Assembly: GCA_014728175.1 (NCBI GenBank)
Contig: WJMA01000062.1
Coordinates: 6,914-70,913, forward strand
Direction: 5' to 3'
Source of the DNA: Candidatus Fermentibacterota bacterium
GTDB taxonomy: Bacteria > Fermentibacterota > Fermentibacteria > Fermentibacterales > JCC-6
DNA length: 64,000 nt
Shown: in pieces, positions 10,841 through 46,802 of the stretch
Numbering within the stretch: the first letter of the stretch is position 1
Layout of the letters: each line of letters starts with the position of its first letter
Position numbers and translations under genes: made by a program
Notes under the pieces: generated by a model
Seen by the model: the letters and a program-made list of their open reading frames with translations, nothing else
What the model was told of the DNA's origin: nothing
Databases searched by the model: none

Positions 10841-10869
10841 TGGATCCCTTCGCTGAGCGACGCGGCGCT

Positions 10870-12998: not shown

Positions 12999-13019
12999 GC
13001 CAGATCAACCTCTCCGCGT

Positions 13020-13379
13020 CTACTCGACCACCAAAAGGGATACCACCCAGTCCCCGAAGCGCGCTCTCTCGGGATTCATCGGGTCCGCGACCAGCTCTAC
13101 CCCGTCGACCAGGAATCCGTACCTGTACCTTCCGCGGGGTAGCTCCACTTGCAGGATCCAGTTACCGTCGCCCACCGGCTCCATCCTACCGACCTCGGGA
13201 TTGACCGTACCACCGGCATCCACCAACCCTCCCCAGTGGTTCCAATCGCCGATCACCTGTACCTTGCAGGCTCCGGGACACCAGAAGCTGAAGCCCTCCG
13301 GAGAGGGCGGCCTTTCCGCCGGCGTCAACATCGTACACCCGAGCATCAAAAGCAGAGCGAAGAACGTGAGCCGACGCAC
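13020..13379 (-). CDS. Small secreted lipoprotein with CBM48 / glycogen-binding (isoamylase N-terminal-like) domain
   Basis: Signal peptide and lipobox (LLLMLGC). VQVIGDWNHWGG...YRYGFLVDG pattern is typical of the E-set/CBM48 fold. Confidence 0.6.
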   Translation of the reverse strand: MRRLTFFALLLMLGCTMLTPAERPPSPEGFSFWCPGACKVQVIGDWNHWGGLVDAGGTVNPEVGRMEPVGDGNWILQVELPRGRYRYGFLVDGVELVADPMNPERARFGDWVVSLLVVE

Positions 13380-14620
13380 TATCTGAGCACTCCTTTCAGT
13401 CCGATCCGGAGCCGCACATCATCTCCGTCCCAGCCGACCTCCATCATCCCGTAGATCGAGCGCACGGAAGCTATCACGGTCAATCGGCCCCTGGGGTCCA
13501 GATCGTCCGATGGGCTGCCGGATAGCTCCAGCCGGGCGTGAACGTCCCTTCGAGGGGAGTATCCGGCCCGACCACCAACCCTCCAGTCATCCTCCATGAT
13601 CTCCACCCAGCCCCCGGCCTGCTGCATCCTGCGTTGGAAGATTGCTGAGATCTTGCCGCTGCAGTCCTCCCATTCGGCCAGGTCGAGGCTGCCCTCCAGC
13701 AGCATCGAGGCCTCGGTAATGGTGGACAGCCCCACCGAGAAGCTGTCCGCCTTGTCCGTTCTCCATTCCCTGCTTCCGTAAAGCCACCCCGAGAGAAGCC
13801 TTTCGGTGCTCCTTACCATCAGCTTGCCTCCAGCCTGCCTTTGGCCGGGCCGCAGGGCGCCGCTCTCCAGACTCAGGCTGTCTCCTGCCATCGCGATCAG
13901 GGGTACCAGCTCCACGCTTACCCGATGGTTGCGGCGCAGCCGCAGGCTCCTGATCTCACCGATCACACCCCAGGAGGATCCTCTATCCGGATCGCCGACA
14001 ACGATCAGGTGGGGGCTGGCGACGGGCAGATCGGTCCAGGCCTTGAGTACATCCAGCCTGTCCGACGCGTCTCCGGGGCCCTCCGTTCTGTAGCTCTCCA
14101 GCGCAAAACTCCCGAATCCCAACCAAGGCGCTCTTACGTTGGTAACCCTCAGGCTGTCTTCCTCCGCCTCCGAAGCCACCAGGTAGCTGGCTTTGAACCC
14201 GAGAAGCCCGCCGGCGGCAAGTCTGGCTCCGACCAGGGAGTCGACCTCGGTACGGTACCAGTCCACCACGGGCACGGACATACCCCACGAGAACGGTTGA
14301 TGATCGGCCAGGAAAACGCCGCCTCCCATCCAGGGGGTTCCAGGCCAGGAGAGATCCAACCGGGCACGGCGGAGGAAGGCGGAGCTGGCGGAGTCCCTTC
14401 TGAAGGCCGGAACCGCCAGAAAATCTACGGTCTTGGGCATCGAGGCGAGCAGCGAGCACTCCAGGTCGACCGAGGAGCTGTCCAGATGCGGCGAGCCGCC
14501 CACCATGGTCAAACCGGCCTCGGCCGAAAGCAGCGGCACGGCATCGAAGCTCCAGCCTTCCGCAGAGTCGGGCTCCGCGGCGATCAAAGCCAATAGAAGG
14601 GATAGACCTACCAGGTCCAT
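13379..14620 (-). CDS. Hypothetical secreted protein (signal peptide; possible beta-barrel)
   Basis: ORF with an N-terminal signal-like MDLVGLSLLLALIAAEP and alternating amphipathic strands. No recognised catalytic motifs. Translationally coupled to neighbours. Confidence 0.5.
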   Translation of the reverse strand: MDLVGLSLLLALIAAEPDSAEGWSFDAVPLLSAEAGLTMVGGSPHLDSSSVDLECSLLASMPKTVDFLAVPAFRRDSASSAFLRRARLDLSWPGTPWMGGGVFLADHQPFSWGMSVPVVDWYRTEVDSLVGARLAAGGLLGFKASYLVASEAEEDSLRVTNVRAPWLGFGSFALESYRTEGPGDASDRLDVLKAWTDLPVASPHLIVVGDPDRGSSWGVIGEIRSLRLRRNHRVSVELVPLIAMAGDSLSLESGALRPGQRQAGGKLMVRSTERLLSGWLYGSREWRTDKADSFSVGLSTITEASMLLEGSLDLAEWEDCSGKISAIFQRRMQQAGGWVEIMEDDWRVGGRAGYSPRRDVHARLELSGSPSDDLDPRGRLTVIASVRSIYGMMEVGWDGDDVRLRIGLKGVLR

Positions 14621-15435
14621 TCGCCCGTTCTGTAACCCACTGAGATCATATGACCTGCCTTCTGCTCCGTAAGACGGATACCGTAATCTACGTTGACCCT
14701 GGATATCGAGAGTCTCGCACCGGCGGACCAAGAGTCCCAGTCGCTGCCCGTTCTCACCGATACCCCCGGACCCAGGCGAAGGTCCGCTCCCACCGCAACC
14801 TCGCCTTCTCTCCCGGAGAGATGCCCTCTGAGGTTGCGGTTGAACACGTAACTGAACGCGTAATTGAATTCCACCTCGCTGGAGGGACCGAATCCCGGAT
14901 CACCGCTGCCGGCCAAACCCGATCCCTCTACCCCTATCCCGGCACAGAAAGTGGGAAACATCGCTATCTGAAGGTTTCCGGCGGCTTCCAATCCCGTGAA
15001 GCTGAGATCTTCTTCCTGGATGTGCCTTAACCCGGCCCTTACCCCCAGCGATACACTGGGACCGAAGAACCCCTCGAGGAAGGCCACAGGGTCACCTGTC
15101 AGCACCCGGGCCGCGCATAGCGTGGCCAACGTGGTGTCGGCAGTGTCAGCCATCCTACCGCGATAAACGCCTCCCCCGGTGAATATCCCACCCAGAGGGC
15201 CTCCGGCGAAGGCTCCCACGGAGAGATCCGTGCTTCCGCCCTCCTCCACCCACTCCTCATGTCCCCAGCCGATGAGGCCCAGCTCCCAGCTTTCCAGACG
15301 TACCAGACCGGCGGGAGCGCTGATGCAGGCGGGTCCGGAAGCCGAGTAGGCTGTCGGCTCTACCGAAAGACCGTAAGACTCGGCGTCAAAAGCACCGGGG
15401 GCACACAGGATGACCAGCGCCAGCAGAGGGGTCAT
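14608..15435 (-). CDS. Hypothetical outer-membrane beta-barrel-like protein
   Basis: Signal peptide MTPLLALVILCAPGAFDA, Gly-rich alternating beta-strand pattern, C-terminal aromatic residues (…GYRTGEWTW). Confidence 0.5.
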   Translation of the reverse strand: MTPLLALVILCAPGAFDAESYGLSVEPTAYSASGPACISAPAGLVRLESWELGLIGWGHEEWVEEGGSTDLSVGAFAGGPLGGIFTGGGVYRGRMADTADTTLATLCAARVLTGDPVAFLEGFFGPSVSLGVRAGLRHIQEEDLSFTGLEAAGNLQIAMFPTFCAGIGVEGSGLAGSGDPGFGPSSEVEFNYAFSYVFNRNLRGHLSGREGEVAVGADLRLGPGVSVRTGSDWDSWSAGARLSISRVNVDYGIRLTEQKAGHMISVGYRTGEWTW

Positions 15436-15501
15436 TCCGCTTCCGACGGGATCGGATACCGGGAGAGACGAGGTGGACAAGCAAGCATTCGGTGATCCTC
15501 C

Positions 15502-16191
15502 TCAAAGGCGCTGCATTATCTCTTCGGGGCTCAAGTGACCGACCCTTCCTCCGGTTACGGTGACGGTAAGGTTGGACTCGATGTCGTCCTCCAGACCCTC
15601 GATAAGGCGCTTGGCGGCCGTCTTCGCGTTCTCCGCCGAGGTCTCTGGGAGTATTATGAGCAGCGCCCCGTAAGAGACCCTGCACAGGTGATCGGACAAC
15701 CGCATGTTTATAAGCAGATCGAGCACCGTTCTATGGGGAATCTCCGTATCCTCGCCGGCCGGAGCCATCAGTATGAAGCTCAGAGGGGTGTCGTAACGCT
15801 TGGACCAGGCCAGCATGCTTCTGATCAAATGTCTGGCGGTCACGGCGTCGCCCAGACGGTAAACGCTGTTGGCCAGCAGGCTCTCGGCTCTGAAACGCAT
15901 CTCCTTGCGCGAGGTGGGCCTGAAGACCACTTCCGATACCCCGGCCTGCCAGGCGAGTTGCCCCTCCTCTCGGGAACCGACAACTCCTATCAGAGGAAGA
16001 AACGGGGTTTGCCAAAGGGCCATGGTCCGGGTGGCGCTCTCCACGCTTTCGATGCCGTCGGCGACTATTATCGATGGCATCTCTTCCCCGCCCGACGGCA
16101 GCCCGGCCTGCGCCTTCTCCCCTCCGGCGCCCTGCAGCATGTCCACCAGTCGTCTGGTCTCGTCTTCATCGGTGCCCAGAACACGAATCAT
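15502..16191 (-). CDS. Hypothetical regulatory protein with degenerate GGDEF-like (nucleotide-cyclase fold) C-terminal region
   Basis: PLSFILMAPAGEDTEI...DHLCRVSYGALLIILPETSAENAKTAAKRLIEGLE resembles a GGDEF domain lacking the GG(D/E)EF active site. N-terminal half resembles a receiver/GAF-less sensor. Weak assignment. Confidence 0.4.
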   Translation of the reverse strand: MIRVLGTDEDETRRLVDMLQGAGGEKAQAGLPSGGEEMPSIIVADGIESVESATRTMALWQTPFLPLIGVVGSREEGQLAWQAGVSEVVFRPTSRKEMRFRAESLLANSVYRLGDAVTARHLIRSMLAWSKRYDTPLSFILMAPAGEDTEIPHRTVLDLLINMRLSDHLCRVSYGALLIILPETSAENAKTAAKRLIEGLEDDIESNLTVTVTGGRVGHLSPEEIMQRL

Positions 16192-16290
16192 GACCGGTAC
16201 GCCCCTCTTCCGATACCGACCTCAGGCTCCACACCAACCTCCCATGAATAACCCTTGAGAGCCCCGTTGAAAAGAGAAACGAAGAGAAGC

Positions 16291-17129: not shown

Positions 17130-17133
17130 GTAG

Positions 17134-18560
17134 TTAATAGGCACCCCTGCCTTTGAATATGGTCAGAACGGTTCTAATCAGTATGACGAAGTCCAGCATC
17201 AGCGACTGGTTTCGGATGTAGTAAAAGTCGTACTCGATATTCTCGTGCAGCGGCAGGTCCTTCCTGCCCATCACCTGCCACAGGCCGGTCATGCCGGGCT
17301 TGGCGTCCAGGCGGTGCATCTGCCATCGCGCGTAACTCTTCACTATGAACGTCATCTCCGGCCTGGGCCCCACCAGGCTCATGCTGCCGCTCAAGACGTT
17401 GAACAGCTGGGGCAACTCGTCCAGGCTGGTCTTGCGCAGGATCCTGCCGATGAACGTGACCCGGGGGTCGCCCTTCTCCAAAGGCGCCACCTCGTACTCG
17501 TCCGCCTCCGGTTTCATGGTGCGGAACTTATAGAGCGTGAACTCTTTGCCTTTAAGGCCGACTCTCTTCTGCTTGAATATGGGGCTGCCCTTGGTCGTCA
17601 GCAGCAGGATGAGGTAGATCACCACCAGCAGGGGCAGTAGAAGCAGTATCAGAAAGGCCGAGCAGAGCAGGTCCATCGTTCTCTTGAGGAACCGTTGAAA
17701 GAGCGAGGGTCTTCCGTATCCGATCTCGATTATCGGAATCCTGGAGAGATCGTCCAGATCGGTCTTGCCGGTGGCGATCTCGAAGAGGTCGCTCACCAAT
17801 CTGAAGTGTACGTCCTTCTTCCTCACGGTGGATATGATCCCCAGCATCTTCGACCTCTCCAGCTCCGGTGAGGCGAAGAAGACCTCGTCGGCGTCGTGGC
17901 TCTCCACCAGCCGGTGAACGTCGGCCAGGGTTCCGATGACCGGGGCGCCCTCGAACTCCTCCAACTCATCGTCCGGCCGCAGGGTAAGCACTCCGGCTAT
18001 CTCCGGGGCCGGTTCCGGTAGCTGTCTGATCTTCCTTATCACCCGGCGGGCCACATCACCCGTCCCCACCACCAGAATCCTGGGAGCTATGCGAATGGGC
18101 GCTATGAGCTGGGCCAGCTTCTTCGCCCCCGCCCTGGCCATGACGGTCAAGGGCAGGGAGATGATTATGAACATCAGCATCATCAGCCGGGAGTAGTCCT
18201 TCTTGACCAGGTAGCTCGCAGCCATCAGGGAGACGCCCAGGATCAGTAGGGCCTTGATTATCCGCTGCATTCTCCTGACGCTTCCCCCGTACCGACGAGG
18301 TCGATACAGACCGTTTACGCCGAAGCATACCAGCCACAAAATCACTATCACCGGAAGCGTCGGCAGGTACACCGATAGATCGTGGTGGAAGTAATGAAGC
18401 AGGTCCCTCAGAATGGTGTTCCTCAGCCAGAACGTTACTAAAAGGGCCACCGGGGCGGCTATCACGTCGGCAAAGACCAGGAGAACCGCCAGTACCCTGT
18501 CGGCTCTTCTTGCCGGAGCTAGCAAGATTTCCTCCAGAAACGAACGAGTCCCATCGTCAT
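17134..18560 (-). CDS. wbaP: Polyprenyl-phosphate hexose-1-phosphate transferase (WbaP/CpsE-type initiating sugar transferase)
   Basis: N-terminal TM helices, a central Rossmann-like region, and a C-terminal bacterial sugar-transferase domain ([18 protein letters not shown]). True start is unclear (no ATG). A TTG/CTG start near 18530-18560 overlaps the upstream GT2 stop. The ORF-track N-terminal extension to 19029 is rejected. Confidence 0.82.
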
Positions 18561-19481
18561 CCCGGCCAACAGGGCCGCCCCCCGACAGAGTGCGAACGCC
18601 GGGACCATCGGCGCCACGGCCGTATCGACTGCCAGCGTCACCCGCACCAGAGGCAGAGTGGTTATCACGAATGCCGCCAGCCACATCAGTGATAGATAGG
18701 GCATCATCGCCGAGGAGACCAGTACCGGCAGCAGCAGAGATATCAACACCAGCTGCACCTTGAGCATCGCCGGAGTGTACGAATCCGAGGCCGCCTTTCC
18801 CGGGAAACTCCGCACCACTTTCATCCTCCACTTCCCCCGAGACAGTTTCATCCTGAGATATGCGATCCAGGTAGGCTGGTGGCGATGCGCCACCCGCGCC
18901 GGCCGATGGAAGACCAGCCTGTATCCCGCAGTCTTCAGTCGGTAGGAGAGATCCACGTCCTCGTGATCCGGAAGGGGAAAGGACTCGTCGAACCCTCCCA
19001 CCGATTCCAGGGCCTCCCGGGTGAAGCATGCCGAGTAGGTGTCGACCAGATCTACATCTTCGCTCCGGGAAAGCAGCCTATACCGCTCCTCGAACTCCAC
19101 CTGGGCCAGCCGCTGGATCGTTCTCCGGCCTCCGCGGCTGTAACTTCCCTTGACTCCTCCCACTCCGGTCCGCATGGCCCTAAGCATCTCTTCAGCCCAC
19201 GAAGGCTCCGGAACGCAGTCGGCGTCGGTGAACATGACGTAGGGCAGCTCGGATGCCCTCCATCCCCTGTTTCTGGCCGCGGCCGGCCCAGAACCGGGCC
19301 CCGTGAGTACCAGGTCGACCAACCGCCTCACGCCCTCCGGGGGCTCCCCACGTCCGTCTATGGAAACCACTATCCGCAGCTTTCCTCTGATCGTTTGGGC
19401 ATTCAGCGCCTCCACGCAGTCCCGAAGGTTGGGATCGTCGGGCAACGAAGGCACCACCACGGCCGCTACTTGCTCCGACAT
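18519..19481 (-). CDS. Glycosyltransferase family 2 with C-terminal transmembrane helices (HpnI-like architecture)
   Basis: GT-A fold motifs (VVVPSLPDD, FTDADCVPEPSW, DxD-like DHEDVD) and ~3 C-terminal TM helices. Confidence 0.82.
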   Translation of the reverse strand: MSEQVAAVVVPSLPDDPNLRDCVEALNAQTIRGKLRIVVSIDGRGEPPEGVRRLVDLVLTGPGSGPAAARNRGWRASELPYVMFTDADCVPEPSWAEEMLRAMRTGVGGVKGSYSRGGRRTIQRLAQVEFEERYRLLSRSEDVDLVDTYSACFTREALESVGGFDESFPLPDHEDVDLSYRLKTAGYRLVFHRPARVAHRHQPTWIAYLRMKLSRGKWRMKVVRSFPGKAASDSYTPAMLKVQLVLISLLLPVLVSSAMMPYLSLMWLAAFVITTLPLVRVTLAVDTAVAPMVPAFALCRGAALLAGMTMGLVRFWRKSC

Positions 19482-19483
19482 CG

Positions 19484-20926
19484 TCAGCCCCTGTCCGTAA
19501 GCAAGTGCTTCCAGAACGTTCCCAGGGCCTTGAGAATGGTGTGGCGCTCGTCACGGTCGCTGATCACCCGCCACAGCTTGGACGCCAGGTATGAAGGGCG
19601 GAGGTAGAACCTCCTCCGGGCGTAGTTGCAGAACTCGACCAGCTCTCGACCGGAGAGAGACTCCGTTCTGACAACGCAGTTGTGGGTCCCGTCCTCTCCT
19701 AGCCATTCCCGCCAGGAGTCGGCGGTTATCCGGCCGGTTCCCAGGGCCTCCCTGTAAGCCTGGGTCCCCGGGTAGACCATCAGAGGGTAGAACTGGGCAG
19801 TGTCCGGATCCAGGCGCAGAGCGAAATCCAGGGTTCGCTGCATGGTCTCCTTGGTCTCTCCCGGCAGACCAACCAGGAAGCAGCCGTGCACCAATACCCC
19901 CGCCTTCCTGGCGTCCTCGGCGAACCGGAGCATGGTGGCGATATCTATTCCCTTGCGCATGGCATTCAAAAGCTGGTCTTCACCGCTCTCGTAACCGACG
20001 CACACCGTTCTCAGGCCGGCCTTCCGGCACAGCGTCAGAGTCTCGAGGTCCACGTCGGCCCGCATGTTGGCGGTCCATGACAAGTTCACTCCCGAAGAGA
20101 TGACCTCCCGGGCCAGGCTCCTCAGCCGCTCTCGGTCGACCGAGATGGTATCGTCCTCGAAGAACACCGCCCTGACCCGGGGAAGGTTCTCTTCCACCCA
20201 CAGCATCTCCTCCACAACGTTCCTCACCGAGCGCTGACGGAGCTTTTTTCCATGCAGGGTCTGGGGAAACACGCAGAAAGTGCAGCCGTGCGGACATCCC
20301 CTGCCGCCCATTATCATCACCTGAGGATACAGGGCGTTGGGATTGCTGTAGTCGTTAATCCGTAGATGCCTCTTGTAGACCTTGCTTACGAAGGGCAGGG
20401 AGTCCAGGTCCTCCAGGAGGGGGGCCTCTCCGGTGGAAACAGTCTCCAAACCTTCCCTCAGGCAGAGACCGGGGACCTCCGTCAGGTCAGCTTCCCTTTC
20501 GATCGATTCGGCCGCCAAAAGCAAAGGCTTCTCGTACTCCCCCACCACCACTCCGGTGAAGTCGTTTCCCAACCCCACTGTACGCTCCGGGAGCGCCGAG
20601 GGATGGGTTCCCACCAGCAGGACGTTCTCCACCACTTCCGACAGCCGGTCGGCCAGCTCTACATCCGATTCTATGGATGGAGTAGAGGTCTCCAGAACCG
20701 CCATCTCCGGAGAGAAGCCTTCCACCCTCTCGATAACCTCCGGCTCGGACAGCCCGGCCGCAGGGGCGTCCAGGAACAGAACGTCGTGACCGGCCTGCTC
20801 CAGGGCTCCGACCGCGTACGATATCCAAATGGGATAGTACAGAGTTCCGCTGCGGGTCACGGCCGGGCTTCTTTGTCCCCGGCTGTAGTGGGGCAAAAAC
20901 GGCGGGTTAAGAACCGCTATTCTCAT
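19484..20926 (-). CDS. B12-binding-domain radical SAM protein (HpnJ-like family)
   Basis: Start MRIAVLNPPFL. N-terminal cobalamin-binding-like domain. Radical SAM cluster motif GCPHGCTFC. Conserved blocks DLDSLPFVSKVYKRHLRINDY, VGYESGEDQLLNAMRKG and LVGLPGETKETMQRT resemble hopanoid-associated HpnJ proteins (from recalled sequence, not a search). Confidence 0.8.
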   Translation of the reverse strand: MRIAVLNPPFLPHYSRGQRSPAVTRSGTLYYPIWISYAVGALEQAGHDVLFLDAPAAGLSEPEVIERVEGFSPEMAVLETSTPSIESDVELADRLSEVVENVLLVGTHPSALPERTVGLGNDFTGVVVGEYEKPLLLAAESIEREADLTEVPGLCLREGLETVSTGEAPLLEDLDSLPFVSKVYKRHLRINDYSNPNALYPQVMIMGGRGCPHGCTFCVFPQTLHGKKLRQRSVRNVVEEMLWVEENLPRVRAVFFEDDTISVDRERLRSLAREVISSGVNLSWTANMRADVDLETLTLCRKAGLRTVCVGYESGEDQLLNAMRKGIDIATMLRFAEDARKAGVLVHGCFLVGLPGETKETMQRTLDFALRLDPDTAQFYPLMVYPGTQAYREALGTGRITADSWREWLGEDGTHNCVVRTESLSGRELVEFCNYARRRFYLRPSYLASKLWRVISDRDERHTILKALGTFWKHLLTDRG

Positions 20927-21950
20927 CCAGCTCTTCCTTAAGCGCTGACCAGACCTGGTCCACGGATATCCTTTCCATGCAATCGCCTCTCCGGCGGGAG
21001 CATCCGGGGAACACGGAGTTGGAGTAGCAGGGCGCGCATTCCGCATCGGTACCGACCGCGACGATGGCCCGTGGATCGTAGAGGCTGTCGGGGTTGGTGG
21101 GACCGAAGAGCAACACCGGTCTTACCCCCACCGCCACGGCCAGATGGGCCGTACCGGTGTCTACGCCCAGAAAGCCCCGGCACCTGGATATCACCGCGGC
21201 CGTTCGACCCCAATCGGTGGTACCGGTCAGATCCAACGGATCGCAGCTGCTCCTATTGGACACCGAAGCCGATATCCCCACATCTCCCCTACCTCCCAGC
21301 AGGACCACGCTGAAGCCGGTCTCGAAGAGACGGTCCACCAACGCCGCGAATCTTTCCGGCGGCCAGCGTTTCTGGGGCACGGTATCCCGCGGGTTGCAGG
21401 CTCCTCCCGGAGCCACCGCCACCCAGGGGCGCCCGGATGGCAGACGTTTGGCGGCGAAGGATTCCTCCTCGGCCCTCAGAGGGAAGATAGGGCGGTATTG
21501 GGAAGGATCGACCCCGGCTATATCGGCGTACGTCCTACCGGCGAACGCCCAAGGATCGAATCCCACGCATCGCTCCCACTCCCCCAGAGGCTCGCTGCCT
21601 CCACTGCGCATGACCGATCCGGTCAGGAATCTGACCCATCTCCTGGTAAAACCGGATTCTGCAAACACGACAGACCTCTCCACCGCCCGCAGATCCTTCC
21701 GCTTGCCCAGCGACCACAACCCAAGCCTCAGAAGCCCTGCTGGGCCCCGGAATGGAAAGGGAGCCACCAGTACCCTCTCCAGGCCCGGCAAACGCTCCCA
21801 TACCGCCGCGGCGGAGGGACCGCACAGGGCCCACCACCGTCCGCCCCGCCGAACCAGCTCCGTGGCCGCCGGGGTGGCCAGAAGGGAGTCACCGAAGGCA
21901 TGGGTCTTTACCAACAGGCCTATCCCGCTCAAGGATCGCCTCCGGCCCAT
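20907..21950 (-). CDS. Glycosyltransferase family 9 (heptosyltransferase-like)
   Basis: GIGLLVKTHAFGDSLLATPA N-terminal motif and a C-terminal GT-B region (LLGGRGD..., GVDTGTAHLAVAVG) typical of ADP-heptose:LPS heptosyltransferase family. Confidence 0.8.
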   Translation of the reverse strand: MGRRRSLSGIGLLVKTHAFGDSLLATPAATELVRRGGRWWALCGPSAAAVWERLPGLERVLVAPFPFRGPAGLLRLGLWSLGKRKDLRAVERSVVFAESGFTRRWVRFLTGSVMRSGGSEPLGEWERCVGFDPWAFAGRTYADIAGVDPSQYRPIFPLRAEEESFAAKRLPSGRPWVAVAPGGACNPRDTVPQKRWPPERFAALVDRLFETGFSVVLLGGRGDVGISASVSNRSSCDPLDLTGTTDWGRTAAVISRCRGFLGVDTGTAHLAVAVGVRPVLLFGPTNPDSLYDPRAIVAVGTDAECAPCYSNSVFPGCSRRRGDCMERISVDQVWSALKEELDENSGS

Positions 21951-21987
21951 GGATAAGTGACAAGCGCGGATCGGTAAGCGAGAGGTA

Positions 21988-22722
21988 TCAGCCCGACTGC
22001 TTCTCTATCCAATTCCCGAACCATTCGGACATCATCAGCTCGAGTTCCCTGGGCTGCGAGTCGCTCCATACCGGCTCGGTGGAGGGATGCATTACCAGCT
22101 CCACTTCGCCCGGGGGCAACTTGCCCTCGAAGCCCCTCAGGTAATCGCGGTCGACGCTTCCGCTGCGACCGAAACCGAGTATGCAGCTGGTGGTCCTCAT
22201 TCCCAGCTCGGAAGCTTTGGCCGAGAACGATTTGGCGTATCTGTTCAGCACGAAGCCGGTCGGTCTGCGCAGTCTGTCGGGTATGTGGGCGGCCCTGATG
22301 TTCCTAATGCCGTACTGGGTGGCCAATTCCAGGATTACCTCCTGCAGCGCGGGCATGTGATGGAGATGCCTGTGACTGTCCAGGCGGGTGACCATTACAC
22401 CGTTGGAGAGGAGCCTCTCTATCTGCAAGCTCCATTCCTTCTTGGCGTCTTCGGTATACTTTCCTCCCACCAGAAGCCAAGCGGCCAGGGAATCGGGGAA
22501 GGTCGCCTCACTGAGGAAAGGGGACTCGATGCAGTTGAGATGGGCGGATACGGTCTTGTCGGAAGCGGCGATTATTCGGAATGCATGTTCGGACTCGCTC
22601 CCGCTGGCCATTACGCTGAGGCAGTCCACCGTTCCCGCCTTGATGCACTGCTCCACCGCGTCGTTGATCGGTTTGGCCCGACCCACGTCATCGATCGTAA
22701 CCAGAATACGGCGGTCCCTCAT
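21988..22722 (-). CDS. ChbG/HpnK (YdjC) family carbohydrate deacetylase
   Basis: ILVTIDDVG...LDSHRHLH motif pattern of YdjC-like polysaccharide/chitooligosaccharide deacetylases. Confidence 0.8.
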   Translation of the reverse strand: MRDRRILVTIDDVGRAKPINDAVEQCIKAGTVDCLSVMASGSESEHAFRIIAASDKTVSAHLNCIESPFLSEATFPDSLAAWLLVGGKYTEDAKKEWSLQIERLLSNGVMVTRLDSHRHLHHMPALQEVILELATQYGIRNIRAAHIPDRLRRPTGFVLNRYAKSFSAKASELGMRTTSCILGFGRSGSVDRDYLRGFEGKLPPGEVELVMHPSTEPVWSDSQPRELELMMSEWFGNWIEKQSG

Positions 22723-22818
22723 TCTACACTCTCCCGGCCTTTGGGTGTTCTACGGCCCCTCCTCGACCCCAAGCATACAACCACACGTCCGGTGCGCCCA
22801 ACCCGAATCCGGGGGCCA

Positions 22819-24027
22819 TCATTCGCGACATTCCCATTTGGCCTGTCGCAGGACCACCGGTCTTTCCTTCCTCTCTCCCAGCAGGGTAATCCGGAAGCGG
22901 TAATCCAGCCAATGGTAGTCCCGATTCCTGGCCGGATCGGTCAGAGCCAGGCCCATTAGGTACTCCCCGGGCTCGGCGATCTGCAGGTCTATGCTCAGAG
23001 TAGCCTTAAGCCTGTCATCCACCTTCAGAAGCGGCCGGTTGAGCTCCAGGTTGTTCGTGCCCAGCACAGTTTGACCATCCGGCCGATGTAGCGAGAAACC
23101 GAAGACGATCCCGTCCGTAGTTCCCCGAAGACTGCTTACGATGTCCGCGTCCACCACTATGGGCTGCCCCGGTCGGAACCTTCTGCTGGGGACGCCGCTC
23201 TCGTTCCGTACCTCCACGGACTCGAAACGTACTTCCCTGGTACCCCATTCGCTCCTGTCGACGGTTCCGGTGGAAGCCGGGCGGCTGGTCTGCGAAACGT
23301 AGGAGCCGATAACCTCGTCCGGACCTCCATCCATTACCACCCTACCGTCATTAAGCCAGATCACCCTCTCGCACAGCCTGGAGACGGCTTCCATGTCGTG
23401 GGAGACGAAGATTATGGTCCTGCCGGTACCCTGGAAGCCCATTATCCGGTCGTAGCACTTCTGTTGGAAGGACGCGTCACCCACCGCCAGAACCTCATCG
23501 ATGAGAAGGACGTCCGGGTCCACCGATGTAGCCAGGCTGAACCCCAGCCTCATGAACATCCCCGACGAGAAGTATTTCACGGGAATATCCATGAACCTCT
23601 CCAGCTCGGAGAACTCGGCTATGGATGGAAGCAGCTCCCTCATCCGCTGCCGGTCCAGACCCAGGAGAGCCCCGTTGAGAAACACGTTCTCCGCCCCGGT
23701 AAGCTCGGGATGGAAACCCACCCCCAGATCGAGAAGCGAAGCCTTCCTTCCCACCGACTCCACCACTCCCGAGGTGGGACGGTAAATGCCCGCCAGCAAC
23801 TTGAGGGTAGTAGACTTTCCGGCCCCGTTGGGCCCCACGATGCCCACCGACTGCCCGGGCTGCACCCTGAACGTCACGTCGTCCAGCGCCCTGAACAGCT
23901 CCACCCTGGTTCTACGGTTGAACAGGTTGAGAAAGGTCTCCATCAGGCTGACCGTACGGTCGTGGTAGAGCCTGTAATCGAGGCTCACGCCCTCGAAGCT
24001 CACCGTTCCCCTGGCCGGCACGTTCAT
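22819..24027 (-). CDS. wzt: Polysaccharide/O-antigen ABC exporter ATP-binding protein (Wzt/TagH-like) with C-terminal carbohydrate-binding beta-sandwich domain
   Basis: Start MNVPARGTV. Walker A GPNGAGKST, signature FSSGMFMRLGFS, Walker B LLIDEVLAVGD. ~170-aa C-terminal extension typical of Wzt. ATGA-type overlap with wzm. Confidence 0.88.
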   Translation of the reverse strand: MNVPARGTVSFEGVSLDYRLYHDRTVSLMETFLNLFNRRTRVELFRALDDVTFRVQPGQSVGIVGPNGAGKSTTLKLLAGIYRPTSGVVESVGRKASLLDLGVGFHPELTGAENVFLNGALLGLDRQRMRELLPSIAEFSELERFMDIPVKYFSSGMFMRLGFSLATSVDPDVLLIDEVLAVGDASFQQKCYDRIMGFQGTGRTIIFVSHDMEAVSRLCERVIWLNDGRVVMDGGPDEVIGSYVSQTSRPASTGTVDRSEWGTREVRFESVEVRNESGVPSRRFRPGQPIVVDADIVSSLRGTTDGIVFGFSLHRPDGQTVLGTNNLELNRPLLKVDDRLKATLSIDLQIAEPGEYLMGLALTDPARNRDYHWLDYRFRITLLGERKERPVVLRQAKWECRE

Positions 24028-24803
24028 AACTCCTTGACCACGGCTGGCTCGGCCCTTCTGAACACCGCTATGCCCAGGAAGAACAGAACCACGCTCCATA
24101 CGATCAGGGAGGCCCAGCACCATGGCTCGGGCCAAGCTCCCTGGTGCAGAATGCTGTGGAATATCTCCATTAGCCCCGAGAGAGGATTCAGCCTGAGCAC
24201 GGACTCCAAGCCCTCAGGCACTATTCCCCGGCCCAGCGGATATATGACCGGGGATGCGTAGAACCAGGCCAGCAGAAGCACGTCCATCAGCTGCGACACG
24301 TCCCGGTAGTAGATGTTCCAGACCGACAGCATCATGCATATCCCAGAAGTCATAAGGATGAACATCAGCATGGCCACGGGCAGGACCAGGAGGGAGAACC
24401 CGGGGGTATGGCCGAAGGCTATAAGGGCCGTCTCCAACACGATCAGGGAGAGGAGTAGATTGACCGCGTTCGCCGCCACGTTGGCCATGGGAAGGGATAC
24501 CCGGGGGAAGTACACGCTGCGTATCAGCCGGTGATTGTCCAGAAGGCTCTTGGTGGATGCCGAAAGGGACCCCGAGAAGAAGTTCCAGGGCAGGAGGCCG
24601 GTAAGCAGAAAGAGCGAGAAGTGCCTTATCTCTCCCCCGAACCTAATTATCTGGGTGAAAACTATGGTGTACACCACCATGCTGAACAACGGCTTGAGCA
24701 GGAACCAAAAGAAGCCCAGAACGGACCTCTTGTAACGCACCTTCAGCTCCTTGCTTACCAGGCTCTGCATCAAAAGCAGCAGCCTGGACAACCTTCGCAG
24801 CAT
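24024..24803 (-). CDS. wzm: ABC-2 type polysaccharide exporter permease (Wzm/TagG-like)
   Basis: 6-TM ABC-2 permease with characteristic YKRSVLGFFWFLLKPL N-terminus. Confidence 0.88.
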   Translation of the reverse strand: MLRRLSRLLLLMQSLVSKELKVRYKRSVLGFFWFLLKPLFSMVVYTIVFTQIIRFGGEIRHFSLFLLTGLLPWNFFSGSLSASTKSLLDNHRLIRSVYFPRVSLPMANVAANAVNLLLSLIVLETALIAFGHTPGFSLLVLPVAMLMFILMTSGICMMLSVWNIYYRDVSQLMDVLLLAWFYASPVIYPLGRGIVPEGLESVLRLNPLSGLMEIFHSILHQGAWPEPWCWASLIVWSVVLFFLGIAVFRRAEPAVVKEL

Positions 24804-25408
24804 CAGCTATCAGCCCCGGATTCCAGCTTGTGTTCCTCCCGTTTCAGCAGGCGGACTATATTGCTCCTGTGCCTTGCCACCACCACCGCAGCCACCACGC
24901 AACATACTACCCTGACCGGCACCATCCCCGGCCCCGTCTGCAGTAGGAATACTGAGGGAACCAGGGCCAGGGCGGCAAGTACCGAGGACAGCGACACTAT
25001 TCGAAAGACGGCCAGAGTCACCGCGAAAACCCCCAGAGCGGTCAGTACCGGAACCGGGGTCAGAACCACCAGCGAGCCCAGGGCGGTAGCTACTCCCTTG
25101 CCCCCCCGGAAGCCCAGCCAGGGAGTGAATACGTGCCCCGCCACCGACAGGACCGCGCTGATCGACTCCACCAGCACCGTAGAACCCAATAAGCCCGCCA
25201 GAAGGACGGCGCCGGCACCCTTGGAGATGTCCAGAAAAAGTCCGGCAAGGCCCAACGGTATCCCGCATTCCCGCAGTAGGTTGGTCGCTCCCACGTTGCC
25301 CGAGCCGACCTTCCGCAGATCGCTGCCCGCCCACCGGCCTAGTATCCAGGAGAAAGGGATAGAACCCAGAACGAAGGCAATCAGCAGGGCCGCGGCAGTG
25401 CTCATCAA
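24803..25408 (-). CDS. plsY: Glycerol-3-phosphate acyltransferase PlsY
   Basis: LGSIPFSWILGRWAGSDLRKVGSGNVGATN...GGKGVATALG motifs. Confidence 0.92.
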   Translation of the reverse strand: MMSTAAALLIAFVLGSIPFSWILGRWAGSDLRKVGSGNVGATNLLRECGIPLGLAGLFLDISKGAGAVLLAGLLGSTVLVESISAVLSVAGHVFTPWLGFRGGKGVATALGSLVVLTPVPVLTALGVFAVTLAVFRIVSLSSVLAALALVPSVFLLQTGPGMVPVRVVCCVVAAVVVARHRSNIVRLLKREEHKLESGADS

Positions 25409-26703
25409 TGCTTCCTCTTGCGGTACAATATCTTCAATGGAACTCCAGAAAGGTCCAGGGCTTCCGTCAGGCAGTTCCTGAGGTAGCGTCTGTAGCTCTC
25501 GGGGGCATCATCCGGACGATTGGCGAATATAAGCACCTTGGGGGGCCTGGTTCCCACCTGGGTGGCGTAGAAAAATTTGACCTGCCTGCCCCCCGGAGAC
25601 GGCGGCTGGTTCCTCTCCACGGCTTCCTGCAGCACCCGGTTCAGCATCGGGGTAGGCAGCTTGGCCGCCCTCCTCTCCGCCACCCTCCAGGCGGTGGAAA
25701 GGATATCCTCCACTCCCTCCCCGGTCAGCGCGGAATGGAAAAGCACGGGGATCCATCTGGCGGGGCTGAACCGCTGCTCGATCGCCCGCCTCCACAGCTC
25801 ACGGTCCAGGCCCAGATCGATCTTGTTGACCCCGAAAACCACACCTTTGCCTATATCCCAAGCCTTGCCCGCGATTCGCAGGTCCTGGTGGGTAGGATAC
25901 TCGGAGGCATCCAGCATGACATGGACCACGTCGGAAACGCTCATCGACCGCCAGGCCCTTACCGTGCTGTAGTACTCCACGTCGGCCATCTTTCTGGATT
26001 TCCTGCGTAGACCAGCGGTATCCACAATCCTTATGTTGTGCCCTTCCCACCGGATCAGCATGTCCGTGGAGTCCCTGGTGGTTCCGGCCTCCGGCCGAAC
26101 CAGGCTCCTCTCGTGCTTGCATAACATGTTCACTATTGAGCTCTTACCCACGTTGGGCCTTCCCACCACGGCCAGAAGCATCTGCTCGAACTCCGCCTCG
26201 CCGCTGGGGGGAAGAACCTCGACCAGGGCGTCCAGGAAATCTCCCAGACCTCTGCCATGCGTGGCGCTAACCGGCCATGGATCTCCCAGGCCCAGCTCGT
26301 AGAAGTCTCCCACCAGGCCTTCCCGTTTCTCGTTGTCGACCTTGTTTACTGCCAGCAGGACGGGAAGACCAGATTTGCGGGCCACTTCGGCGGCACTGAG
26401 GTCGAAGGGGTGAACACCGGCTGTCACGTCCACCAGCAGGATGAGTACGTCCGACTCGTCTATCGCCAGCCTTACCTGGTTCTCTATGGCCTCCTGCAGG
26501 GGATCTTCGCTTCCTGGAGCCAGACCTCCAGTGTCTATGACGAAGAAGTCACGGTCCCGCCAGGATGCCGTTGCCACGTTTCTGTCGCGGGTAACGCCGG
26601 GCTGGCTGTCTACAATGGCATTCCTTCGGCCAACCAAACGATTGAAGAAGGCCGATTTACCGACGTTAACACGCCCCACGACGGCCACCGTAGGCAAGAG
26701 CAA
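25405..26703 (-). CDS. der: Ribosome-biogenesis GTPase Der (EngA), tandem GTPase domains + KH-like domain
   Basis: Two G-domains (GRVNVGKS; GRPNVGKSS) and a C-terminal KH-like domain. der-plsY adjacency is widely conserved. Confidence 0.93.
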   Translation of the reverse strand: MLLPTVAVVGRVNVGKSAFFNRLVGRRNAIVDSQPGVTRDRNVATASWRDRDFFVIDTGGLAPGSEDPLQEAIENQVRLAIDESDVLILLVDVTAGVHPFDLSAAEVARKSGLPVLLAVNKVDNEKREGLVGDFYELGLGDPWPVSATHGRGLGDFLDALVEVLPPSGEAEFEQMLLAVVGRPNVGKSSIVNMLCKHERSLVRPEAGTTRDSTDMLIRWEGHNIRIVDTAGLRRKSRKMADVEYYSTVRAWRSMSVSDVVHVMLDASEYPTHQDLRIAGKAWDIGKGVVFGVNKIDLGLDRELWRRAIEQRFSPARWIPVLFHSALTGEGVEDILSTAWRVAERRAAKLPTPMLNRVLQEAVERNQPPSPGGRQVKFFYATQVGTRPPKVLIFANRPDDAPESYRRYLRNCLTEALDLSGVPLKILYRKRKH

Positions 26704-28617: not shown

Positions 28618-28625
28618 CAGTGCCT

Positions 28626-30077: not shown

Positions 30078-30081
30078 ATTC

Positions 30082-30624: not shown

Positions 30625-30670
30625 AATGATTAGTGGAAATGGAGCGTAACGCAACATGGCCCATCCGGCT

Positions 30671-46795: not shown

Positions 46796-46802
46796 GGCCG
46801 AG

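What the first reader, a model, noticed from the sequence alone, without database searches (positions are those of the whole stretch)
18519..22722. HpnI/HpnJ/HpnK-like trio (GT2 – B12-radical-SAM – YdjC deacetylase) inside a Wzm/Wzt glycan export locus, with no hopanoid cyclase nearby
The GT2 with C-terminal TM helices, the B12-binding radical SAM protein, and the YdjC-family deacetylase mirror the three enzymes that build the cyclitol-ether head group of bacteriohopanepolyols. There, HpnI adds GlcNAc, HpnK deacetylates, and HpnJ performs ring contraction. Here they are co-transcribed with a GT9 heptosyltransferase-like gene, a WbaP-type initiating transferase and a Wzm/Wzt exporter. No squalene-hopene cyclase is in the window. 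This suggests a carbocyclic/aminocyclitol-type modification on a polyprenyl-linked or lipid-linked glycan rather than on a hopanoid, which would be an unusual envelope glycoconjugate. The HpnJ resemblance comes from recalled sequence blocks, not a database search.
Basis: partly seen in the sequence, partly recalled or inferred. Interest (0 to 1): 0.65.

Follow-up and report, generated by a model that had tools for sequence, protein, structure and literature searches.

The report
HpnJ-like radical enzyme in glycan operon
A Fermentibacteria surface-sugar operon carries an uncharacterised sister of the hopanoid ring-contracting enzyme HpnJ, always paired with a membrane glycosyltransferase, so it probably makes an unusual radical-modified sugar on the cell envelope rather than on a hopanoid.

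Summary
The genes are real and lie at the stated coordinates, in one packed minus-strand operon: der-plsY-wzm-wzt-YdjC-GT9-B12 radical SAM-GT2-polyprenyl-phosphate glycosylphosphotransferase. No squalene-hopene cyclase or other hpn gene was found in the 64 kb.

Only the radical SAM protein has a specific link to the hopanoid trio.
- **rSAM:** HpnJ is its best curated match by far (343 bits, next is BchE at 151; 35% identity to a real HpnJ). It is below the family cut-off (577.6) and outside the HpnJ clade (96/100 bootstraps).
- **GT2:** unrelated to HpnI beyond the fold.
- **YdjC:** only a weak HpnK match (82 vs 232.6).

The firmer result is a conserved module. This rSAM family occurs in about 513 species genomes, mostly anaerobic diderms. 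It is usually followed by, and is sometimes fused to, an orthologous membrane-anchored GT2. GT9 and LPS-type genes often flank it. YdjC joins the module only in Fermentibacteria.

Best reading: a tailoring step on a lipid-linked aminosugar of an exported envelope glycan. HpnJ-type ring contraction is favoured but unproven. C-methylation is a serious rival. I rate it an uncharacterised new variant of a known kind, of moderate interest.

The parts
24024..24803 (-). Wzm, the ABC-2 type permease of the glycan exporter
   Evidence: PF01061, 58.4 bits. Its stop overlaps the wzt start.
22819..24027 (-). Wzt, the exporter ATPase, with a C-terminal carbohydrate-binding Wzt_C domain. The true start is the ATG at 24027, not the 438-aa ORF start.
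   Evidence: PF00005 71.5 bits and PF14524 61.9 bits. Orthologues are 399 aa. AAGGAG lies upstream of the ATG.
21988..22722 (-). YdjC-family carbohydrate de-N-acetylase. HpnK is its best curated match, but it is not a member.
   Evidence: PF04794 116.9 bits. TIGR03473 HpnK 82.1 bits (cut-off 232.6) and ChbG 55.5 bits. The DD, H and HxH motifs align with HpnK. Orthologues were found only in Fermentibacteria.
20907..21950 (-). Divergent GT9 (heptosyltransferase-fold) glycosyltransferase
   Evidence: PF01075 81 bits. HepII TIGR02195 62.7 bits (cut-off 134.6). Present upstream of the rSAM in 40/40 Fermentibacteria loci and 17/29 loci of other phyla.
19484..20926 (-). Cobalamin-binding-domain radical SAM enzyme of an uncharacterised sister family of HpnJ (called rSAM_J here)
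   Evidence: PF02310 + PF04055, with C211/C215/C218 invariant. HpnJ TIGR03471 343 bits (cut-off 577.6). 35% identity to a real HpnJ. Outside the HpnJ clade. AF2 pLDDT 91.4; the nearest solved fold is AprD4.
18519..19481 (-). Membrane-anchored synthase-like GT2, the obligate partner of the rSAM. It is not HpnI.
   Evidence: Pfam GT2 families including PF13506. Best NCBIfam matches are MftF 104 and EpsD 79, with no HpnI hit. E=1.3 against HpnI. About 3 C-terminal TM helices, DAD86, HEDVD, SRGKWR. AF2 pLDDT 95.7; best folds are hyaluronan and cellulose synthases. A natural rSAM-GT2 fusion, P0122, exists.
17134..18525 (-). Polyprenyl-phosphate glycosylphosphotransferase (WbaP/WcaJ type), the initiating enzyme. 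It starts at TTG 18525; the 631-aa ORF is an over-extension.
   Evidence: TIGR03025 404.6 bits (cut-off 295.55). PF02397 + PF13727. GGAGGA lies before the TTG. Orthologues are 463 aa.
24803..26703 (-). der (EngA GTPase) and plsY, housekeeping genes heading the same packed gene array
   Evidence: Pfam. The overlaps are -4 and -1 nt. The order der-plsY-wzm-wzt is conserved across the phylum.
7871..16191 (-). Conserved downstream part of the phylum-wide locus: four proteins without a clear family, a MalK-like ABC ATPase, a GT4/MraY-family transferase, and a 1016-aa Wzy_C (O-antigen-ligase-like) + TPR protein
   Evidence: Pfam. The same order is seen in 26-34 of 40 Fermentibacteria loci.

Best explanation
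This is an operon for an ABC-transporter-exported, lipid-linked envelope glycan (O-antigen or LPS-core type) of a Candidatus Fermentibacteria bacterium.

Its core is a conserved two-gene tailoring module: a cobalamin-domain radical SAM enzyme from a sister family of HpnJ, and a membrane-anchored, synthase-like GT2. The module is flanked by a GT9. In this phylum a YdjC deacetylase is added.

Proposed sequence of steps:
1. The phosphotransferase primes a polyprenyl phosphate (shown by family membership).
2. The GT2 adds an N-acetyl-hexosamine to a membrane-bound acceptor (inferred).
3. YdjC removes the acetyl group (inferred from family and intact motifs).
4. The rSAM abstracts a hydrogen from the lipid-linked aminosugar and rearranges it without methyl transfer. 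The most likely reaction is an HpnJ-type contraction of the pyranose to a five-membered carbocycle (inferred from closest homology and shared gene logic only).
5. GT9 extends or attaches the unit.
6. Wzm/Wzt export the product. The Wzt carbohydrate-binding domain may read the modified terminal residue.
7. A Wzy_C-type ligase attaches it to its final acceptor.
For: - **Operon:** the anatomy and domain assignments are solid.
- **Closest characterised family:** HpnJ leads by about 190 bits over the next model, with 35% identity over the full length.
- **Same gene logic as hpnI-hpnJ-hpnK**:
  - The rSAM is immediately followed by a GT2 with TM helices in 37/40 Fermentibacteria loci and 15/29 loci of other phyla (22/29 anywhere in the locus).
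  - The same holds in 27/42 loci of intermediate HpnJ-like families.
  - A natural fusion protein carries both parts, and its GT2 half is orthologous: 47% to the Thermodesulfovibrionales GT2 and 37% to the window GT2.
- **YdjC:** it co-occurs in every Fermentibacteria locus that reaches that position. It is kept in the window's sublineage even though the two GT-C genes and the second rSAM were lost.
- **GT2 fold:** closest to membrane-embedded synthases (TMq 0.70-0.75), which fits a membrane-bound acceptor.
- **rSAM fold:** the nearest solved structure is AprD4, a non-methylating rSAM that acts on a glucosamine ring.
- **Glycan/LPS context elsewhere:** GT9, an LpxL/PatA-like acyltransferase, Wzy_C and Wzm/Wzt.
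- **Organism:** Fermentibacteria are inferred to be diderms with LPS (PMC5030696).
Against: - The ring-contraction step rests on about 35% identity to an enzyme known only from a knockout phenotype (PMC13459092).
- In a published similarity network HpnJ co-clusters with the C-methylases Fom3 and MoeK5 (PMC9204698). This level of similarity therefore does not fix the chemistry.
- The rSAM fails the HpnJ cut-off and lies outside the HpnJ clade. Deeper tree nodes are unresolved, at 12-37% bootstrap.
- The GT2 is not HpnI, and YdjC is only weakly HpnK-like.
- YdjC is absent from the module in all other lineages. There, class I methyltransferases often accompany or are fused to related rSAMs.
- The sugar, the acceptor and the order of steps are all inferred.
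- 40/40 other Fermentibacteria loci carry PMT_2 GT-C genes that the window lacks, so the window version may not carry out the whole ancestral pathway.
Confidence: 0.4

Rival explanations
1. The operon and the module are the same, but the rSAM is a cobalamin-dependent C-methyltransferase. It would put a methyl branch on a sugar of the lipid-linked glycan, as MoeK5 does on the lipid-linked moenomycin saccharide or as GenK/GenD1 do on aminoglycoside sugars.
For: - Most characterised Cbl-domain rSAM enzymes are methylases.
- HpnJ co-localises with Fom3 and MoeK5 at a stringent network threshold (PMC9204698).
- Relatives of this rSAM are fused to class I SAM methyltransferase domains (P0124, P0171).
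- The Lawsonia plasmid homologue sits among several annotated class I methyltransferase genes.
- A methyltransferase gene lies in 16/42 loci of intermediate families.
- Solved folds ranking just after AprD4 are methylases: MgmA, TsrM, CysS and TokK.
Against: - Every curated methylase model scores far below HpnJ: PhpK 122, MCR Gln-MT 102, HpnR 75, against 343.
- A Streptomyces clavuligerus pSCL4 B12-rSAM scores only 149 bits and falls with the outgroups. It may be MoeK5-like, but I did not verify that.
- An adjacent O- or N-methyltransferase says nothing about the rSAM's own chemistry.
- The presence of a deacetylase has no obvious role in a C-methylation step.
Confidence: 0.3
2. The rSAM carries out another radical sugar transformation on the deacetylated aminosugar. 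Candidates are AprD4-like 1,2-diol dehydration (deoxygenation), oxidation or epimerisation. The cobalamin-type domain would then be structural.
For: - The closest solved structure by both sequence and fold is AprD4, a diol dehydratase bound to the glucosamine-containing paromamine. Sequence E is 1.4e-24. The fold match has TM 0.72/0.76 and 24% identity.
- In other phyla the module is flanked by a DUF362-ferredoxin protein and a molybdopterin oxidoreductase. These could supply or remove electrons.
Against: - The AprD4 family model scores only 95 bits, against 343 for HpnJ.
- No AprD3-like partner reductase was seen in the window operon.
- AprD4 tops the fold list partly because no HpnJ, BchE or Fom3 structure is in the PDB.
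Confidence: 0.15
3. This is an Arn/Lgm-type lipid A or core aminosugar decoration. The GT2 would make polyprenyl-phosphate-HexNAc. YdjC would deacetylate it. After flipping, a GT-C (PMT_2) enzyme would transfer it in the periplasm. In the window the GT-C genes have been lost, so the remaining genes are a rewired or partly relict version.
For: - 40/40 other Fermentibacteria loci carry one or two PMT_2 (ArnT-like) genes interleaved with YdjC, GT9 and the rSAM.
- The lgmABC system of Bordetella is a precedent for adding GlcN to lipid A (PMC4993483). The assignment of steps to each Lgm protein is from my memory.
- LPS-type neighbours occur in other phyla: an LpxL/PatA-like acyltransferase and a GT9 scoring close to the heptosyltransferase cut-offs.
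Against: - The GT2 does not match the window's expected type: it has no ArnC, GtrB or DPM1 hit at E<=0.01. Its Nitrospirota orthologue matches ArnC only at E 9e-6.
- Its fold is closest to processive synthases.
- The window and its relative with an 81%-identical rSAM have no PMT_2 remnant, yet all the other genes are intact and tightly coupled. That argues for a functional pathway without GT-C.
- This rival concerns the acceptor and route, not the rSAM chemistry, so it can coexist with the other readings.
Confidence: 0.12
4. These are true hopanoid side-chain genes (hpnI/J/K orthologues). They would act on bacteriohopanetetrol made by an shc pathway encoded elsewhere in the genome.
For: - HpnJ and HpnK are the top curated matches for two of the three proteins.
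- The rest of the genome could not be searched.
Against: - All three proteins fail the curated cut-offs, and the GT2 is unrelated to HpnI.
- The rSAM lies outside the HpnJ clade.
- The genes are translationally coupled to a polyprenyl phosphotransferase and follow wzm/wzt.
- There is no hpn gene in 64 kb.
- At curated cut-offs HpnI and HpnJ occur only in SHC-positive genomes (bioRxiv 10.1101/2025.07.29.667474). This family is sub-threshold.
Confidence: 0.03

Closest known systems
HpnI-HpnJ-HpnK (bacteriohopanetetrol cyclitol ether head-group pathway; TIGR03472/03471/03473)
   Same: - It uses the same three enzyme classes, encoded side by side: a membrane GT2, a Cbl-domain rSAM and a YdjC deacetylase.
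- The rSAM is homologous to HpnJ over its full length (35% identity), and HpnJ is its best curated match.
- The substrate is presumably a sugar attached to a membrane lipid.
   Different: - All three proteins fail the family cut-offs.
- The GT2 is not homologous to HpnI beyond the GT-A fold, and its TM topology differs. It has three C-terminal helices; HpnI has one N-terminal and two C-terminal.
- Gene order differs, and a GT9 is inserted.
- The context is wzm/wzt plus a polyprenyl phosphotransferase, not shc/hpnH.
- YdjC belongs to the module only in Fermentibacteria.
Calditol synthase Cds of Sulfolobus (radical SAM ring contraction of a lipid-linked hexose; PMC13459092)
   Same: It is the proposed precedent for a radical SAM enzyme turning a lipid-linked hexose into a five-membered carbocycle without a hopanoid.
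   Different: It is archaeal and acts on a tetraether lipid. Homology to the window protein was not tested here, because no sequence was available. It is not linked to a glycan exporter.
ABC-transporter-dependent O-antigen or S-layer-glycan pathways with a Wzt carbohydrate-binding domain (for example E. coli O9a; Geobacillus slg locus, from my own knowledge)
   Same: - Wzm and Wzt with a Wzt_C domain.
- An initiating phosphotransferase.
- Cytoplasmic glycosyltransferases.
- Wzy_C-type ligase candidates in the window.
   Different: - No recognisable chain terminator (kinase or methyltransferase).
- Only two glycosyltransferases.
- It contains a Cbl-domain rSAM and a YdjC deacetylase, which are not part of the described systems.
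AprD4 (radical SAM diol dehydratase of apramycin biosynthesis, PDB 6FD2)
   Same: It is the closest solved structure. It has an N-terminal Rossmann-type domain plus an rSAM barrel, acts on a glucosamine ring, and is non-methylating.
   Different: Identity is only 24%. The AprD4 family model scores 95 bits, against 343 for HpnJ. AprD4 acts on a soluble secondary-metabolite substrate and needs AprD3, which was not seen here.
MoeK5, GenK and Fom3 (Cbl-dependent rSAM C-methylases)
   Same: They belong to the same superfamily. MoeK5 and GenK modify sugar carbons. HpnJ co-clusters with Fom3 and MoeK5 in a published network (PMC9204698).
   Different: No direct comparison was possible, because no sequences were held. 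Curated methylase models all score far lower than HpnJ.

Membership tests
HpnJ (TIGR03471, equivalog) | Whole-protein score at or above the curated cut-off of 577.6 bits | tested here: not met
   343 bits, full-length alignment. The Lawsonia homologue scores 375.8.
HpnJ (TIGR03471, equivalog) | Groups inside the clade of HpnJ proteins from hopanoid producers | tested here: not met
   In the NJ tree the HpnJ clade (Mycetohabitans, Methylobacterium and 6 representatives) is monophyletic in 96/100 bootstraps and excludes the window protein. Identity to HpnJ is 35%, against 48-69% within its own family.
HpnJ (TIGR03471, equivalog) | Cobalamin-binding domain plus a radical SAM CxxxCxxC core | tested here: met
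   PF02310 44.7 bits, PF04055 84 bits, with C211/C215/C218 invariant.
HpnJ (TIGR03471, equivalog) | Encoded in a genome, and usually a locus, with shc and hpnH | tested here: not met
   No SHC or hpn domain in any scanned ORF of the 64-kb window. The rest of the genome was not available, so genome-wide absence is untested.
HpnJ (TIGR03471, equivalog) | Converts a lipid-linked glucosamine to a cyclitol (ring contraction) | not testable with these tools
   This needs biochemistry. Even for HpnJ it is inferred from a knockout (PMC13459092).
HpnI (TIGR03472) | Sequence membership | tested here: not met
   No HpnI hit at E<=0.01; the best matches are MftF 104 bits and EpsD 79 bits. BLASTP against Mycetohabitans HpnI gives E=1.3.
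HpnK (TIGR03473) | Score at or above 232.6 bits | tested here: not met
   82.1 bits. 23% identity to Mycetohabitans HpnK.
YdjC/ChbG carbohydrate deacetylases (PF04794) | Domain match and conserved Asp/His active-site motifs | tested here: met
   116.9 bits against a cut-off of 29.7. DD11-12, H61 and HxH117-119 align with HpnK.
Cobalamin-dependent (class B) radical SAM methyltransferases | Membership of a curated methylase family | tested here: not met
   PhpK 122/600, MCR Gln-MT 102/360, HpnR 75/650, KedN5 38/700. Methyl-transfer activity itself cannot be tested here.
LPS heptosyltransferases (GT9: WaaC/WaaF/WaaQ equivalogs) | Score above the equivalog cut-offs | tested here: not met
   HepII 62.7/134.6, HepIII 42.7/170.2, HepI 41.6/185.3. 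The GT9 domain PF01075 is met at 81 bits.
ABC-transporter-dependent glycan export (Wzm/Wzt) | ABC-2 permease plus an ATPase with a Wzt_C domain, next to an initiating transferase | tested here: met
   PF01061, PF00005 + PF14524. TIGR03025 404.6 against 295.55.
ABC-transporter-dependent glycan export (Wzm/Wzt) | A dedicated chain terminator that creates the cap read by Wzt_C | tested here: inconclusive
   No kinase or methyltransferase terminator was found in the operon. The rSAM/YdjC-modified residue could serve as the cap, but that is conjecture.

The most novel reading that the evidence does not exclude
The rSAM+GT2 module (with YdjC in Fermentibacteria) makes a carbocyclic aminocyclitol-type residue by radical ring contraction of a lipid-linked hexosamine. 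This residue would be built into an exported surface glycan or LPS. HpnJ of hopanoid producers would then be one specialised offshoot of a much larger, glycan-directed enzyme radiation. That radiation is present in hundreds of anaerobic diderm species: Fermentibacteria, Nitrospirota, Desulfobacterota, anammox Planctomycetota, Riflebacteria and Lawsonia.
Probability: 0.3. Interest if true: 0.8.

Novelty: new variant of a known kind. Interest (0 to 1): 0.5.

Why it matters
**HpnJ chemistry.** HpnJ is one of the few cobalamin-domain radical SAM enzymes thought not to methylate. Its chemistry has never been reconstituted. A sister family would give enzymologists alternative substrates and many orthologues to try. 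It acts next to an ordinary polyprenyl-phosphate pathway, and natural rSAM-GT2 fusions exist.

**Envelope glycobiology.** If the product is carbocyclic, it would be an acid- and glycosidase-resistant residue in the envelope of abundant anaerobic-digester and sediment bacteria, and possibly of the pig pathogen Lawsonia. That bears on envelope stability, phage and immune recognition, and lipid or glycan biomarkers.

**Annotation.** The result shows that sub-threshold 'HpnJ/HpnK' hits should not be read as evidence for hopanoid production.

Tried and rejected
- **True hpnIJK.** Rejected on cut-offs, pairwise comparisons with Mycetohabitans HpnI/J/K, and the tree.
- **Remnants in the window.** I looked for PMT_2, the second rSAM, the LpxL-like acyltransferase, DUF362, the u351 protein and HpnI by tblastn. 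Only the rSAM itself cross-hit.
- **YdjC relatives outside Fermentibacteria.** The word-indexed search returned only 22 phylum-internal orthologues. phmmer with YdjC and HpnK found none in 71 loci of other lineages.
- **Diagnostic residues.** I looked for residues shared by HpnJ and the sister radiation but absent from other B12-rSAMs. Only five weak positions emerged (Y184, P249, R306, F335, G348), too few to argue mechanism.
- **PDB sequence search.** It returned only AprD4 and MgmA.
- **Literature searches.**
  - 'HpnJ-like' or 'HpnJ homolog' found nothing.
  - Bradyrhizose plus radical SAM found nothing.
  - Cbl-rSAM with O-antigen and heptosyltransferase found nothing relevant.
  - The Kuenenia S-layer glycan search found no paper that combines it with radical SAM.
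- **Paper not held.** The Zeng et al. calditol paper could not be read.
- **Source contig.** I could not retrieve the window's own NCBI contig, so shc elsewhere in the genome could not be checked.
- **First metagenome query.** It failed because no stretch was conserved enough. I repeated it with three sequences.
- **Promoter/terminator scan.** It gave nothing above chance.
- **S. clavuligerus pSCL4 and Methylobacterium records.** Neither had annotation. The 'MoeK5-like' label for the pSCL4 protein remains unverified.

Full report
**1. What is in the sequence**

On the minus strand between 17.1 and 26.7 kb lies one tightly packed array of genes:
- der, 25405-26703
- plsY, 24803-25408
- wzm, 24024-24803
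- wzt, 22819-24027
- YdjC, 21988-22722
- GT9, 20907-21950
- Cbl-domain radical SAM, 19484-20926
- GT2, 18519-19481
- a polyprenyl-phosphate glycosylphosphotransferase (PGT), 17134-18525

Spacings are -4, -1, overlap, 96, 37, -20, 2 and -7 nt.

The long ORFs of 520 aa (rSAM), 631 aa (PGT) and 438 aa (Wzt) are over-extensions. The starts used here have Shine-Dalgarno-like sites and match the lengths of orthologues.

Domain calls:
- GT2: PF00535, PF13641, PF13632, PF13506
- rSAM: PF02310 + PF04055
- GT9: PF01075
- YdjC: PF04794
- PGT: PF02397 + PF13727, and TIGR03025 at 404.6 bits, above its cut-off
- Wzm: PF01061
- Wzt: PF00005 + PF14524

The GT2 has about three C-terminal TM helices. No squalene-hopene cyclase or other hpn domain occurs in any scanned ORF of the window.

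**2. Source organism**

A protein 100% identical to the GT2 is deposited as 'glycosyltransferase [Candidatus Fermentibacteria bacterium]'. Homologues of the rSAM at 59-93% identity all come from Fermentibacteria, Aegiribacteria or Sabulitectum. This phylum is made up of anaerobic fermenters, inferred from their genomes to be diderms with LPS (PMC5030696).

**3. Test of the HpnI/J/K resemblance**

Real hpnI-hpnJ-hpnK genes from Mycetohabitans rhizoxinica pBRH01 were fetched for comparison.
- **rSAM:** its best NCBIfam match is HpnJ at 343 bits over the full length. Next come BchE 151, PhpK 122, the ladderane rSAM 120 and AprD4 95. The HpnJ cut-off is 577.6. Against real HpnJ it is 35% identical over 444 residues, E 2e-88.
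- **GT2:** it has no HpnI hit. MftF and EpsD are its best matches. It aligns to HpnI only at E=1.3.
- **YdjC:** its best match is HpnK, but at 82 bits against a cut-off of 232.6 and 23% identity. The catalytic Asp/His motifs are conserved.

I built an NJ tree of 100 sequences. It included 50%-identity cluster representatives from an exhaustive search of 1.8 billion proteins. The HpnJ clade is monophyletic in 96/100 bootstraps and excludes the window protein. Deeper nodes are unresolved.

The rSAM is therefore a member of an uncharacterised family whose nearest characterised relative is HpnJ. It is not an HpnJ. The other two proteins share only the enzyme class with HpnI and HpnK.

**4. The conserved unit is rSAM + GT2**

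A scan of one genome per species (185,579 species) found 513 loci encoding this rSAM family.
- Fermentibacteria: 59-69% identity.
- Nitrospirota/Thermodesulfovibrionales, Desulfobacterota (Smithella, cable bacteria), anammox and other Planctomycetota, and Riflebacteria: 47-52% identity.
- Plasmid 1 of Lawsonia intracellularis: 45% identity, in a cluster annotated with GT2s, GalE, a SIS-domain protein, a GHMP kinase, a HAD hydrolase and several class I methyltransferases.

I searched six-frame ORFs of the fetched loci with phmmer.

In Fermentibacteria the order is essentially invariant: der-plsY-wzm-wzt-PMT_2-(second B12 rSAM)-YdjC-PMT_2-GT9-rSAM-GT2-PGT-unknowns-ABC ATPase-GT4/MraY-Wzy_C+TPR. 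Counts among 40 loci with enough flanking sequence:

| Feature | Loci |
|---|---|
| GT2 adjacent | 37/40 |
| GT9 | 40/40 |
| PMT_2 | 40/40 |
| PGT | 39/40 |
| YdjC | 36/40 (the other four contigs end before that position) |

In other phyla the common order is: one to three further B12 rSAMs, an LpxL/PatA-like acyltransferase, an alpha/beta-hydrolase-like protein, GT9, a DUF362-ferredoxin, the rSAM, the GT2, then a molybdopterin oxidoreductase. Counts among 29 loci:

| Feature | Loci |
|---|---|
| GT2 adjacent | 15/29 |
| GT2 anywhere in the locus | 22/29 |
| GT9 | 17/29 |
| Acyltransferase | 17/29 |
| YdjC | 0/29 |

A metagenome scan for intermediate HpnJ-like families gave the same picture. 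A module-type GT2 is adjacent in 27/42 loci and present in 35/42. Methyltransferase genes occur in 16, GT4 genes in 21, and YdjC in none.

Natural fusions exist. P0122 (842 aa, 49% identical to the window rSAM) carries the rSAM followed by a GT2. That GT2 is orthologous to the module GT2: 47% to the Thermodesulfovibrionales protein and 37% to the window protein, including the TM tail. Other relatives are fused to class I methyltransferases or to a GT4.

The functional coupling of this rSAM radiation to a membrane GT2 is therefore well supported. It parallels hpnI-hpnJ. The deacetylase is a Fermentibacteria-specific addition.

**5. The window is a reduced version**

The window lacks both PMT_2 genes and the second rSAM, which are otherwise universal or common in the phylum. 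No remnants are detectable. A relative whose rSAM is 81% identical has the same reduced layout on two independent contigs. The reduction is therefore real. The retained set YdjC-GT9-rSAM-GT2-PGT, together with wzm/wzt, is presumably self-sufficient.

**6. Structural hints**

The GT2 model (pLDDT 95.7) is closest to membrane-embedded synthases. These are Chlorella virus hyaluronan synthase (TMq 0.70-0.75) and BcsA (TMq 0.56-0.70), followed by an archaeal membrane mannosyltransferase.

Together with its DAD, HEDVD and SRGKWR motifs, this suggests a GT2 that works at the membrane on a lipid-bound acceptor, or processively. It does not look like an ArnC/GtrB-type enzyme.

The rSAM model (pLDDT 91.4) is closest to AprD4. 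AprD4 is a non-methylating diol dehydratase bound to the glucosamine-containing paromamine (TM 0.72/0.76). After it come the methylases MgmA, TsrM, CysS and TokK, and the ring-contracting OxsB. No structure of HpnJ, BchE or Fom3 is available for comparison.

**7. Most likely mechanism, and what is shown versus inferred**

*Shown:*
- The operon exists with the stated enzyme families.
- The rSAM-GT2 coupling is conserved.
- The context is glycan export.
- HpnJ is the nearest characterised relative.

*Inferred:*
- The PGT primes a polyprenyl phosphate.
- The GT2 adds a HexNAc at the membrane.
- YdjC de-N-acetylates it.
- The rSAM performs a radical rearrangement of that lipid-linked aminosugar.
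- GT9 extends or attaches it.
- Wzm/Wzt export it. The Wzt_C domain possibly recognises the modified terminal residue.
- One of the two Wzy_C proteins in the window (7871-10921, 28626-30077) ligates it to its final acceptor.

I favour HpnJ-type ring contraction to a carbocycle, at about 0.3-0.4. My reasons are the large margin of HpnJ over all other models and the shared GT2/deacetylase logic.

This step is weak, for three reasons:
- HpnJ's own reaction is known only from a knockout (PMC13459092).
- HpnJ co-clusters with the C-methylases Fom3 and MoeK5 in a published network (PMC9204698).
- Methyltransferase fusions and neighbours are frequent in the radiation.

C-methylation (about 0.3) and other radical sugar chemistry such as AprD4-like deoxygenation (about 0.15) remain open. 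An Arn/Lgm-type route through GT-C enzymes fits the canonical Fermentibacteria locus but not the window, which has lost those genes. A cryptic hopanoid role is very unlikely.

**8. Novelty and verdict**

I found no paper describing HpnJ-like enzymes outside hopanoid synthesis. A survey using the curated cut-offs finds HpnI and HpnJ only in SHC-positive genomes (bioRxiv 10.1101/2025.07.29.667474). This sub-threshold family has therefore gone unremarked.

It is best classed as a new variant of a known kind: a sister family of HpnJ wired into ABC-transporter-dependent envelope glycan and LPS-type loci.

Interest is moderate (0.5). The conserved module and its fusions are a solid, testable lead, and a possible route to the unsolved HpnJ chemistry. 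The attractive claim, a carbocyclic sugar in a surface glycan, is not established by any computation available here.

Noticed in passing
window 20907-24027, compared with loci L002-L052: All 40 other Fermentibacteria loci with enough flanking sequence carry one or two PMT_2 (ArnT-like GT-C) genes, and 25 of them a second B12 radical SAM, between wzt and GT9. The window and a relative with an 81%-identical rSAM (L086, L087) lack them, with no remnants. A sublineage has shed the periplasmic-transfer branch but kept YdjC-GT9-rSAM-GT2-PGT.
   Followed up: partly
L066:1453-18385, also L062, L071 and L085: In Nitrospirota, Desulfobacterota and Planctomycetota the rSAM-GT2 pair sits in a recurrent cluster of unknown function. 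The cluster has 1-3 further B12 rSAMs, an LpxL/PatA-like acyltransferase, a DUF362-ferredoxin protein directly upstream of the rSAM, and a ~705-aa molybdopterin oxidoreductase directly downstream of the GT2. A phosphodiesterase and CysD/CysN sometimes follow.
   Followed up: partly
L004:9531-10994 (Lawsonia intracellularis plasmid 1, NC_008012.1): The 27-kb plasmid of this obligate intracellular pig pathogen encodes a 45%-identical homologue (HpnJ model 375.8 bits). It lies in a glycan cluster annotated with a SIS-domain protein, a GHMP kinase and a HAD hydrolase (which I read as heptose-like biosynthesis), several class I methyltransferases, a second radical SAM, GT2s, and DUF2142 and DUF6077 proteins.
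   Followed up: no
P0134, P0135, P0148 (relatives of window 19484-20926): Several members of the HpnJ-like radiation carry intein or LAGLIDADG insertions that split the protein between the B12 domain and the radical SAM core.
   Followed up: no
window 13020-16191: Four co-oriented genes (229, 290, 450 and 119 aa) lie between the PGT and a MalK-like ABC ATPase. They are conserved in order across the phylum. They have no Pfam family, except for a weak CBM48/AMPK-CBM-like match in the smallest.
   Followed up: partly
window 16192-17133: This ~940-bp stretch has only short ORFs and lower GC (0.557 in the 16001-18000 bin). Some relatives carry a 508-aa PAS-like gene at this position. tblastn finds no remnant of it.
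   Followed up: partly
window 26855-32911: A second Wzy_C (O-antigen-ligase-like) gene (28626-30077) lies next to a PAS/sigma-54 activator, a GAF protein and a GAF-SpoIIE phosphatase. The same arrangement occurs in the relative L086. This suggests regulated envelope glycosylation.
   Followed up: no
window 36536-39013 and 57886-60174: There is a gingipain-type C25 peptidase with a C-terminal FlgD_ig domain, and a 762-aa protein with a weak, sub-threshold match to the Por secretion (T9SS) tail. These hint at a type IX secretion system in this organism.
   Followed up: no
window 45346-47564: Two DOMON-domain proteins flank a DUF5777 membrane beta-barrel protein. Their function is unknown.
   Followed up: no
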